Assembly: GCF_006345805.1 (NCBI RefSeq)
Contig: NW_021836521.1
Coordinates: 1-24,112 of the forward strand
Origin: Octopus sinensis
Lineage: Eukaryota
Direction of reading: 5' to 3'
Length of the DNA: 24,112 bases
The notes under the pieces are model-generated. The model ran no database searches and was not told the DNA's origin. It saw nothing but the letters and a program-made list of their open reading frames with translations. Of this stretch, positions 19-13,993 are shown one piece after another. The first letter of the stretch is position 1, and each line of letters opens with the position of its first letter. The position numbers were made by a program, and so were the translations under genes.

Positions 19-367
19 CAGGAGTAAACACATAAATGTGAAACAAGGTGGAAAAAAAAGAGTACTCAAATACAGAGGTAGAGTAATATGCTTTATTTAA
101 AAGCAGCAGAAATTTAACAAAAGCTGTTACTCGGAGTTTCATGTTCCCGTTCGTCGGACAGTTTTCCCTTCAATGTATAGGGTATCAATGTACAAGGTTT
201 CATTTATGCGCTTTGTTTTAATTTCAGTTAGTGATCGGTGACCATGCTGGAGCACTGTCGTTTATTAGATCAATCTCAGTATTTTTTTTTAACAAAACTG
301 TCCGACGAACGGGTACGTGAAACTCCGAGTAACAGCTTTTGTTAAATTTCTGCTGCTTTTAAATAAA

Positions 368-368
<1 letters not shown>
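19..368. mobile_element. Penelope-like (PLE) non-autonomous fold-back element 1: inverted pLTR-like arms 91-165 / 294-368 with hammerhead motif, one-sided tail 19-90, flanked by (TA)n
   Basis: The 75-bp arms are near-perfect reverse complements (ctttatttaaaagcagcag...cggacagtttt vs aaaactgtccg...ctgctgcttttaaataaag). Each arm has a hammerhead-like core followed by AATAAA. TA repeats lie on both sides. Confidence 0.7.
291..343 (+). ncRNA. Minimal type I hammerhead ribozyme motif (U4C core variant)
   Basis: Stem I aacaaaactgt/acag(c)ttttgtt; core CCGACGA 302-308; stem II acg-ggta-cgt; GAA; palindromic stem III actc-c-gagt; predicted cleavage after GUA (331). The antisense copy at about 116-165 has a stem II mismatch. 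Confidence 0.65.
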
Positions 369-408
<40 letters not shown>

Positions 409-410
<2 letters not shown>

Positions 411-858
411 GGTCCCGGGTTGATTCGGGGTTAACCACAGTAAATAAGGTACTCAATACATAGCAGAGTAAAATTAATTTATTATATAGAAGGAGCTTCT
501 ACAGGACTAGAACTGTTCATCAAGAGAAATCTTCAGGAAGCTAGTTAACAAGAATTGTATTGGCATTTATACATTTAGGCAGGTTTAAAGGGGTGTTGGT
601 GGGGGACTTTTTGGGGGTAGGATAGCGCAAAATATCATACTTGGGGAGTGGTCAAGCTTCTATCTAATTAACACTGACTCCTTGACCACTCCCCCAAGTA
701 TGATATTTTGCGCTATGCCTACCCCCAAAAAGTCCCCCACCAACACCCCTTTAAACCTGCCTAAATGTATAAATGCCAATACAATTCTTGTTAACTAGCT
801 TCCTGAAGATTTCTCTTGAATGAAACAGTTCTAGTCCTGTAGAAGCTCCTTCTATATA
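409..858. mobile_element. Penelope-like fold-back element 2: inverted arms 483-656 / 681-858, 24-bp spacer, one-sided tail 409-482, flanked by (TA)n
   Basis: The ~175-bp arms are reverse-complementary apart from a few homopolymer indels. They contain a canonical hammerhead. The minus-strand tail (aataaa...ttactct...tgtattgagtac) resembles the tail of element 1. Confidence 0.75.
797..847 (+). ncRNA. Type I hammerhead ribozyme motif with canonical core
   Basis: Stem I agcttc/gaagct; CUGAAGA 803-809; stem II (t)ttc-tctt-gaa(t); GAA; stem III acag-ttctagtc-ctgt; predicted cleavage after GUA (841). The antisense copy 494-542 reads GAAC instead of GAAAC. Confidence 0.8.
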
Positions 859-893
859 TAATATATATATATATAATATATATATATATATAA

Positions 894-1234
894 TCACAAA
901 TAAGGGCAAACGAAAACATTTCCAATGCCAAATATCCCGAAAAATTGGACATATTGTCCATTAACCATATTAATTTCTTTCACAATACGCACGCTACCCG
1001 AAAAAAGGTGGACCTTTTTTCGGGTTTAGCGTGCGTATTGTGAAAGAAATGATATGGTTAATGGACAATATGTCCAATTTTTCGGGATATTTGGCATTGG
1101 AAATTTTTTCGTTTGCCCTTATTTGTGAATTGTTTATAATTTTGACCTTTAGAGGTGTTTTTTAGTATGTTGGCCATTGATAAAATTTTTTTTTGGAAAA
1201 GAATTTTTTTCGAAAAAAAATTTATCTTACATTT
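894..1234. repeat. Long palindrome (894-1128, centre 1010-1011) with one-sided extension to 1234, flanked by (TA)n
   Basis: tcacaaataagggcaaacg...aaaaaaggt-gg-accttttttcggg...cgtttgcccttatttgtga; arms about 116 bp with few mismatches. No hammerhead core found. Confidence 0.85.
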
Positions 1235-13360: not shown

Positions 13361-13993
13361 ACTAGGTCCACTTTTAATGTTCTTAGAAAAGAGTGATGTC
13401 ATCAGAAAATATGCCAATACGCTATTATTATTGTTATATTTCGGGGCGGTCATTTTTTCTTGCCAAATAAACACACGCACTATATAATCGTTCTTCACTG
13501 CAGATTTATTATTGTTCTTATTTATGTCCATTGTCTGGAAATCTTTCGTCACACGTCCTGTGACCTCTTCAGCGACTCTCCATCCCACGTGCCTCCTCCT
13601 GTTCTGTTTAGTCCATGGACGAACGTGGGATGTGTGTCGAAAGATTTTCAGACAAAGGACATAAAATAAGAACAATAATAAATCTGAAGCGAAAAACGAA
13701 TATATAGTGCGTGTGTTTATTTGGCAAAAAAATGACCGTCCCGAAATATAACAAAAAAGTAATAAAGTCCTTTATTGTCATATTTTCTGATGACATGACG
13801 CTTTTCTAAGAACATTAACAGTGGATCTAGTTACACGTAGAATGGAGAGTCGCTGAAGAGGTCACAGGACGTGCGTCGAAAGACTTCCAGATGAAGGACA
13901 TAAAATAAGAACAATGATGAAATAAATCTGAAGTGCCTGTGTTTATTTAGCAAAAAAGAATTTTAAAAAAGGCCATCATGAAATATAACAATA
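13361..13993. mobile_element. Tripartite Penelope-like fold-back: inverted arms 13361-13590 / 13623-13831 plus a third partial copy at about 13835-13993
   Basis: actaggtccac...cccacgt vs acgtggg...gtggatctagt. The third copy (atggagagtcgctgaagaggtcacaggacg..aataaatctgaag) is direct to the right arm. A hammerhead-like motif is followed by AATAAA. Confidence 0.7.
13533..13576 (-). ncRNA. Hammerhead ribozyme-like motif (probably degenerate)
   Basis: Minus strand: gtcg-CTGAAGA-g-gtcaca-ggacg-tgtgac-GAA-agattt-C-cagac; 6-bp stem II, near-palindromic short stem III, bulged stem I. Confidence 0.5.

What the first reader, a model, noticed from the sequence alone, without database searches (positions are those of the whole stretch)
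797..847. Apparently intact canonical hammerhead ribozyme
All core nucleotides are present (CUGAAGA, GAAA, GUA), with a 6-bp stem I, a 3-bp stem II (U.U at its base) and a 4-bp stem III with an 8-nt loop. It is the best candidate in the window for monomeric self-cleavage, after nt 841. The upstream antisense arm could sequester it in a long hairpin, making cleavage dependent on where transcription starts (inference).
Basis: partly seen in the sequence, partly recalled or inferred. Interest (0 to 1): 0.75.

Follow-up and report, generated by a model that had tools for sequence, protein, structure and literature searches.

The report
Hammerhead at Penelope retrotransposon RNA start
This self-cutting-RNA motif is one of over 1,500 identical copies in the end repeat of a young Penelope-type jumping gene; hundreds of short copies begin exactly at the motif's first base, likely the capped start of the element's RNA, so that RNA is likely copied mostly uncut and the ribozyme is likely a conditional switch rather than a ready cutter.

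Summary
The hammerhead at 797-847 is real as described, but it is not a lone canonical ribozyme. It lies in the pseudo-LTR of a young Hydra-clade Penelope-like element (1,531 exact copies; full-length RT + GIY-YIG copies found). The 'antisense arm' is the usual 5'-truncated inverted second copy of such insertions. The U·U pair is common in Hydra-clade hammerheads; the 8-nt loop III is centred on a palindrome that favours a dimer, and a conserved hairpin competes for the cut site. Family census: of 100 copies, 21 start exactly at A797 and 1 at the cut site; genome-wide 687 start at A797, 29 nt behind a TATA box, 282 with a non-template G in front (cap-like). A sister subfamily repeats this, and its sequence conservation begins at A797. 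So A797 is likely the transcription start and these stubs were copied from uncut RNA. Cleavage is untested; re-ligated circles remain possible for long copies. The scan noted the same start-at-ribozyme-edge pattern earlier in other genomes. New family with a testable arrangement, within a known kind.

The parts
797..847 (+). Type I hammerhead motif; predicted cleavage between A841 and G842
   Evidence: Sequence and motif scan; 1,531 exact genomic copies
797..797 (+). Likely transcription start (+1 A after T796) = first base of stem I
   Evidence: 21 of 100 sampled copies and 687 genome-wide begin here; subfamily conservation starts here; inferred, no RNA data
768..775 (+). TATA-box match (TATAWAWR consensus recalled), first T at -29 from A797
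   Evidence: Sequence; same 29-nt spacing without indel in the sister subfamily, where it reads as a CATA variant
829..836 (+). 8-nt loop III with centred 4-nt palindrome (831-834); allows 12 of 16 intermolecular pairs, 14 of 16 in a variant
839..855 (+). 7-bp hairpin that covers the cleavage triplet and the 3' strand of stem I, exclusive with the hammerhead fold
   Evidence: sequence kept in the sister subfamily
657..860 (+). Right arm: 5'-truncated pseudo-LTR copy with the short 3' end, running into (TA)n
   Evidence: 99% to the element in L031
408..656 (-). Left arm: inverted 5'-truncated pseudo-LTR copy with the long 3' end (tail), running into (TA)n
   Evidence: 98% to L031
494..542 (-). 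Second hammerhead copy in the left arm, lacking two single A's (one in the GAAA box); possibly sequencing errors
   Evidence: four single-base deletions in this arm; contigs of the laid runs mostly carry the extra letters, but they are not locus-specific

Best explanation
The motif is the hammerhead in the end repeat (pseudo-LTR) of a young Hydra-clade Penelope-like retrotransposon, and its first base is likely the capped start of the element's RNA, which is likely copied into DNA mostly uncut. Shown: the element is repeat-ORF-long microsatellite-rich 3' region-repeat, with hammerheads 5.4-5.8 kb apart and the ATG 183 nt after A797; insertions sit in (TA)n as head-to-head arms that end at two fixed sites about 20 and about 92 nt past the cut site; about half of the long arms stop at or just inside A797. 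Inferred: RNA polymerase II starts at A797 from the upstream TATA box, so the RNA carries the segment A797 to +92 at both ends. The reverse transcriptase primes at the two fixed sites. Primed in the 5' copy it runs off the capped end after about 65 or 137 nt and leaves stubs; primed in the 3' copy it gives longer copies such as the one in this window. By default the 839-855 hairpin holds the ribozyme off. Cutting would need a dimer through the loop III palindrome (two RNAs, or the two ends of one RNA) or protein help, and at the 5' copy it would remove a 45-nt capped leader, so the ribozyme would act as a conditional self-decapping switch and not as an obligatory processing step.
For: Element: tblastn and ORFs, full-length L062 and L067; Hydra motifs RWR, DKT, CxCx5C, CxxC, CxH, no DKG (PMC8557442 section 11). 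3' ends of 98 copies anchored upstream: 42 short, 55 long, 1 inside the motif, 0 at the cut. 5' ends of 100 copies anchored downstream: 21 at A797, 48 within 796-821, 4 in the 104 nt upstream, 47 at 220 nt or more upstream, 1 at the cut. Genome-wide: 687 begin at A797 with a non-template base before it, 282 with G, 1,519 read through. A second AGCT palindrome at 844-847 is no such wall. Sister subfamily (template C before the A): 96 begin at the same A, preceded by A 59, G 33, T 4; young family first 100 rows A 56, G 35, C 9, with 40 of the A's from 20 pairs that share the palindrome. Untemplated 5' G is attributed to cap copying for L1/SVA (PMC3287187 passages). No shared upstream exon in 30 G-class copies. 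Folding. PMC11167929: an Anolis PLE inserts from unprocessed RNA, starts at two internal sites, and its hammerhead cuts only with protein.
Against: No RNA end and no cleavage assay. In 23 of 30 G-class copies the G can also be read as the last base of the opposite arm, so the cap signal is suggestive only. Long copies cannot be told from copies of a cut and re-ligated circle. Of 20 ORF-bearing copies, 14 extend upstream past A797 and none starts there, so promoter-retaining copies need a template jump, a circle or a read-through RNA. A small excess of 5' ends around the cut (20 rows over positions -2 to +1 against 4 rows over four control positions; about 10 against 4 after removing duplicates and stem I homology joins) may mean some cutting. 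Folding energies ignore tertiary structure and kinetics; stem I has 0.98-0.99 probability in RNAs ending at 847-852, which leaves a short co-transcriptional window. A centred 4-nt palindrome in an 8-nt loop has a 1 in 16 chance alone.
Confidence: 0.58

Rival explanations
1. Both hammerheads of a full-length RNA cut as an intramolecular dimer and the unit is ligated to a circle, which templates the long and more-than-unit copies and so restores the promoter; only the stubs come from uncut RNA.
For: Model proposed in PMC4209133 (discussion read). Two hammerheads per full-length RNA with a palindromic loop III. 14 of 20 ORF-bearing copies extend upstream of A797. Ligation would recreate the junction, so read-through of the cut site in 97 of 98 copies does not exclude it. 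Weak excess of 5' ends near the cut.
Against: About half of long arms show that uncut capped RNA is a ready template. A template jump through the repeated segment explains the same copies; many junctions show jumps by short homology. Hammerhead mutants did not affect insertion in vitro in PMC11167929.
Confidence: 0.22
2. The fold is kept as a protein-binding or priming structure and does not cut in the cell.
For: At most about 1-2% of 5' ends at the cut; the region downstream of the cut is as conserved as the motif (5 of 87 changes); predicted population of the full three-stem fold is 2% or less.
Against: All core nucleotides kept in both subfamilies, and only the free position 7 and loops vary; the core is kept across Hydra families (PMC8557442 supplementary file S2).
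Confidence: 0.1
3. One reading: an efficient monomeric ribozyme whose activity at this locus is set by the upstream antisense arm.
For: Intact core, 6-bp stem I, a real 4-bp stem III; fungal PLE hammerheads with a large helix III cut as monomers (PMC4209133); the 480-860 RNA folds into a hairpin of -320 kcal/mol that abolishes the fold.
Against: Inverted arms with varying junctions are the standard PLE insertion form (PMC8557442). Weak stem III, competing hairpin, dimer palindrome. Copies are not bounded by the cut site.
Confidence: 0.06
4. The pile-up at A797 is not a transcription start but a fold-back hotspot at the AGCT palindrome or a splice acceptor at 797-798.
For: 20 of the first 100 rows form pairs that share the palindrome; AG at 797-798 follows a pyrimidine-rich stretch, and in D. 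virilis an intron ends at helix I (PMC4209133).
Against: The same palindrome at 844-847 and a 6-bp palindrome at 790-795 collect no ends; ends fall off only downstream of A797; no shared upstream exon; fixed 29-nt spacing to a TATA box and a conservation step at A797; no joints in four laid contig sets.
Confidence: 0.05

Closest known systems
Hydra clade of C-terminal EN+ Penelope-like elements (Craig et al. 2021, PMC8557442; read: passages, section 11, part 2 of the supplementary file with File S1 Hydra sheet and File S2)
   Same: RWR (RWK-like), DKT, CxCx5C linker, no CCHH, CxxC and CxH, (TA)n targets, inverted 5'-truncated copy. Hammerhead with U after A9 and U before G12 in 14 of 26 Hydra rows of File S2; stem III 'acag...ctgt' in 4 rows.
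   Different: Loop III is 8 nt with a centred palindrome (1-3 nt in all 26 rows); unit is 5.4-5.8 kb because of a microsatellite-rich 3' region (listed families 1.1-3.0 kb). The listed octopus family Hydra-1_Obim has another hammerhead sequence. No start-site mapping for Hydra elements in the parts read.
PAc, Poseidon element of Anolis (Frangieh et al. 2024, PMC11167929; parts 1-2 of 4 read)
   Same: Two fixed reverse-transcription starts that give a tail; AT-rich targets; unprocessed RNA as the main substrate; hammerhead near the ORF start.
   Different: Different clade; PAc's ORF starts inside the hammerhead, here 183 nt after its first base; tail about 70 nt against 30-40; no start site at the ribozyme edge reported in the parts read.
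Minimal and variant hammerheads of metazoan PLEs (Cervera and de la Pena 2014, PMC4209133; parts 1-2 of 4 read)
   Same: Type I, in the pseudo-LTR, palindromic stem III region, no clear tertiary contacts, many solo or opposite-strand copies.
   Different: Has a real 4-bp stem III and 6-bp stem I, a short stem II, and no G10.1-C11.1.
Penelope of Drosophila virilis promoter (Schostak et al. 2008, PMC2377424; passages read)
   Same: Start site lies in the pseudo-LTR and drives the downstream copy.
   Different: Internal, TATA-less promoter with an intron 46 nt after the start; here an upstream TATA box and a start at the ribozyme's first base are inferred.

Membership tests
Type I hammerhead ribozyme | Core CUGANGA, GAAA, NUH around three stems, open at stem I | tested here: met
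Type I hammerhead ribozyme | Self-cleavage after H17 | not testable with these tools
   No assay; genomic 5' ends near the cut are few and only weakly above controls
Canonical (extended) type I hammerhead | G10.1-C11.1 pair | tested here: not met
   U810·U821 in both subfamilies
Canonical (extended) type I hammerhead | Loop 1/loop II tertiary contact on an extended stem I | tested here: not met
   Stem I stops at 6 bp, and the RNA likely has nothing 5' of it; no Rfam hammerhead match
Dimer-type PLE hammerheads | Palindromic stem III/loop III allowing a double hammerhead | tested here: met
   12 of 16 intermolecular pairs, 14 in a variant; cofold -27.0 against -8.5 per monomer. Dimer cleavage itself untested
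EN+ Penelope-like elements | Single ORF with RT and C-terminal GIY-YIG endonuclease | tested here: met
   YRDDG and LVYTC...YIG motifs in 540-690-aa frames, read by motif; Pfam gave no RT or GIY-YIG hit
EN+ Penelope-like elements | Pseudo-LTRs with hammerhead, 5' truncation, inverted 5' copy, tail at one end | tested here: met
Hydra clade | RWK, DKT, CxCx5C, no CCHH, CxxC and CxH | tested here: met
   (RWR in place of RWK; one cysteine only between the two halves of the GIY-YIG motif)
Hydra clade | (TA)n insertion preference | tested here: met
   3' flanks of the 98 copies are TA-rich repeats in nearly all rows
Hydra clade | Phylogenetic placement by RT tree | not tested
   No reference proteins were put into a tree
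Hydra clade | Generally short (<3 kb) | tested here: not met
   5,837 and 5,388 nt between hammerheads in L062 and L067; the paper gives this as a tendency
Non-LTR retrozymes | Non-coding tandem repeats with a hammerhead in each unit | tested here: not met
   Copies are dispersed ends of a coding element

The most novel reading that the evidence does not exclude
In this Penelope family transcription starts on the ribozyme's first base, so the hammerhead is a self-decapping switch at the cap: off by default through a hairpin that also marks a reverse-transcription start, on when two copies pair through loop III. The hundreds of stubs are integrated strong-stop-like cDNAs, and the promoter is restored by a retrovirus-like strand transfer between the repeated RNA ends. 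The cut RNA could be degraded or translated without a cap, as reported for 5'-UTR hammerheads of some RNA viruses (PMC13725137, abstract only).
Probability: 0.3. Interest if true: 0.75.

Novelty: new variant of a known kind. Interest (0 to 1): 0.48.

Why it matters
[quoted passage not shown] This young, high-copy family leaves a base-exact record of where its RNA likely begins and shows that a large share of insertions came from RNA whose ribozyme had not cut. That defines the natural substrate (A797 onward) for a cleavage assay, gives three separable elements to mutate (core, loop palindrome, competing hairpin), and sets circle against template-jump models for how the element keeps an upstream promoter. 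The single locus itself is an ordinary stub.

Tried and rejected
Rfam scan of the whole window: only microsatellite-driven miRNA noise, no hammerhead. Pfam on two ORFs: two sub-threshold spurious families, no RT. Sequencing runs: no RNA holder listed; runs laid were contigs only, which cannot show ends, strand or level; no joints; no listed contig bridged the window's own junction, so the two missing A's in the left arm stay unresolved. Retrozyme or satellite reading rejected: dispersed ends of a coding element. Spliced-leader or short-exon reading of the A797 wall rejected: no shared upstream sequence in 30 copies. Regulatory antisense arm rejected as an evolved feature. A peak of 5' ends at the cut site was sought at positions -6, -4, -3, -2, -1, 0, +1, +3 (true truncations 1 of 14, 2 of 7, 0 of 9, 6 of 13, 2 of 6, 9 of 14, 3 of 11, 1 of 2; the other rows are point changes or ends elsewhere): inconclusive. 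The earlier-findings look-ups by sequence and by nearby place returned nothing. Lunse et al. 2017 on dimer cleavage was not held; seen only through the review PMC6765202 (passages). Paper searches for a start site at a PLE hammerhead found no such report. One search gave no rate data for the 10.1-11.1 pair, passages of PMC2837043 and PMC544870 only confirm that the pair is conserved. Supplements of PMC4209133 and PMC11167929 were not read and may bear on novelty. bioRxiv 10.64898/2026.07.22.740005: part 1 of 5 read; PMC6155905: passages.

Full report
Observation. It folds no better than shuffles (z 0.17) and Rfam does not report it, so the case rests on context. The window is one whole small contig of a 2.7-Gb, microsatellite-rich animal genome; earlier scan notes call it octopus, which I did not test.

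What it belongs to. The 51-mer has 1,531 exact copies. Flanks of 30 top copies extend upstream for variable lengths, often with an inverted second copy, and end in (TA)n. L031 links the repeat to a frame with YRDDG and a GIY-YIG-like end; a protein search found many 91-99% identical frames. L062 and L067 are full length: repeat, ORF, long microsatellite-rich 3' region, repeat, with hammerheads 5,837 and 5,388 nt apart and the ATG 183 nt after the hammerhead's first base. The protein has RWR, DKT, CxCx5C, CxxC and CxH and lacks DKG, the Hydra-clade signature in PMC8557442 section 11. No tree was built. The window holds a stub: a right arm 657-860 with the short end and an inverted left arm 408-656 with the long end. 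The left arm's hammerhead lacks two single A's among four single-base deletions, possibly read errors.

Is it canonical and monomeric? U·U stands where G10.1-C11.1 is usual (PMC4209133), but 14 of 26 Hydra rows in File S2 of PMC8557442 have the same U·U, so it is a clade trait. The unusual part is the 8-nt loop III (1-3 nt in those rows). It is centred on a palindrome: stem III is worth -1.4 kcal/mol as a hairpin and -12.8 as a duplex between two copies, -15.2 in a variant seen 14 times among stored loci. A 7-bp hairpin at 839-855 covers the cleavage triplet; the predicted probability of stem I falls from 0.99 (RNA ending at 847) to 0.29 (ending at 860) and to 0.01 when the RNA starts at 657. 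These are secondary-structure estimates only. Between the young family (one representative) and 30 copies of a sister subfamily, the motif differs at 3 of 51 positions, all in loop II; the 21 nt just upstream differ at 10 with no indel; the 87 nt downstream differ at 5.

Where copies end. Of 98 copies picked by an upstream anchor (98 of the first 100 listed of 1,076), 42 end about 20 nt and 55 about 92 nt past the cut, one ends inside the motif, none at the cut (alignments overrun a few bases into TA). This matches the two-start tail signature of PMC11167929. Of the first 100 of 1,640 copies picked by a downstream anchor, 21 begin exactly at A797, 48 within 796-821, 4 in the 104 nt upstream, 47 at 220 nt or more upstream, and 1 at the cut (three rows are one local duplication, two more look like another). 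Genome-wide, 687 copies have a base other than the template T before A797, 282 of them G, and 1,519 read through. The sister subfamily, whose template base is C, has 96 copies starting at the same A: A 59, G 33, T 4. A TATA-box match lies 29 nt upstream in both. An extra 5' G is attributed to cap copying in L1/SVA (PMC3287187), but in 23 of 30 inspected cases the G can also belong to the opposite arm, so this is suggestive. A second hammerhead family in the window shows a looser form of the pattern: 22 of 30 copies start within -11 to +15 of stem I. Ends near the cut site number at most 20 rows over four positions against 4 over four control positions, about 10 against 4 after removing duplicates and joins explained by stem I homology: inconclusive, and at most 1-2% of long arms.

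Mechanism. Shown: structure, copy numbers, end distributions. Inferred: A797 is the capped start; the RNA repeats the segment A797 to +92 at both ends; priming in the 5' repeat yields stubs, priming in the 3' repeat yields longer copies like this one. Stubs contain the intact motif at their very front, so their template was uncut. Cutting at the 5' copy would remove a 45-nt capped leader and likely needs a dimer or protein. An upstream promoter would be lost by plain copying, yet 14 of 20 ORF-bearing copies (of 30 inspected, 40 listed) extend past A797 and none starts at it. A template jump, a read-through RNA or a ribozyme-made circle must supply this; the genome cannot separate them, so the circle model stays the main rival.

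The motif and predicted cut are right. The antisense arm would block the fold in a read-through RNA but is an insertion by-product, and the likely start lies inside the right arm.

Novelty. Hammerheads in PLE ends, and in Hydra elements, are published. This family was not among the Hydra hammerheads in the part of the supplement read. A start site on the ribozyme's first base behind a TATA box was not found in paper searches and differs from the internal TATA-less promoter of D. virilis Penelope (PMC2377424). Verdict: a real feature, ordinary at the locus, informative at family level.

Noticed in passing
window 91-165 (-) and 294-368 (+): Two arms of a second hammerhead-bearing family (C in place of U at core position 4, 1-nt loop III), similar in design to Hydra-2_aMil in File S2 of PMC8557442; 129 exact matches to a 38-nt piece; a related copy flanks a 35-55% identical PLE frame in L031.
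   Followed up: partly
window 885-1138: Separate 254-nt palindrome, 93%, directly after the (TA)n flank; no type I hammerhead by my scan; possibly another head-to-head stub.
   Followed up: no
window 13361-13831: 470-nt imperfect palindrome, 81%, with a CUGAUGA box in each arm but no standard GAAA partner; could be a split-core hammerhead stub as in earlier scan notes.
   Followed up: no
window about 2645-2675: Degenerate copy of a further minimal hammerhead family (intact relatives in L252 and L257), lacking core C3 here.
   Followed up: no
L031 4500-7620; L062; L067: The element's 3' region is about 3 kb of (TA)/(TG)/(TATG) repeats copied along with it, so the element likely spreads microsatellite-rich DNA.
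   Followed up: partly
G000:C9:87420451-87422335 (L391, L393, L399, L411, L415): Cluster of five copies in both orientations that all end about 247 nt past the cut, a third 3' end inside the ORF start.
   Followed up: no
L034 1572-4516: A LINE-type AP-endonuclease/RT frame interrupts a copy of the element's 3' region.
   Followed up: no
window 408-444 (-), family position +36: A three-codon upstream ATG-stop lies in the 5' leader between the ribozyme and the main ATG.
   Followed up: no
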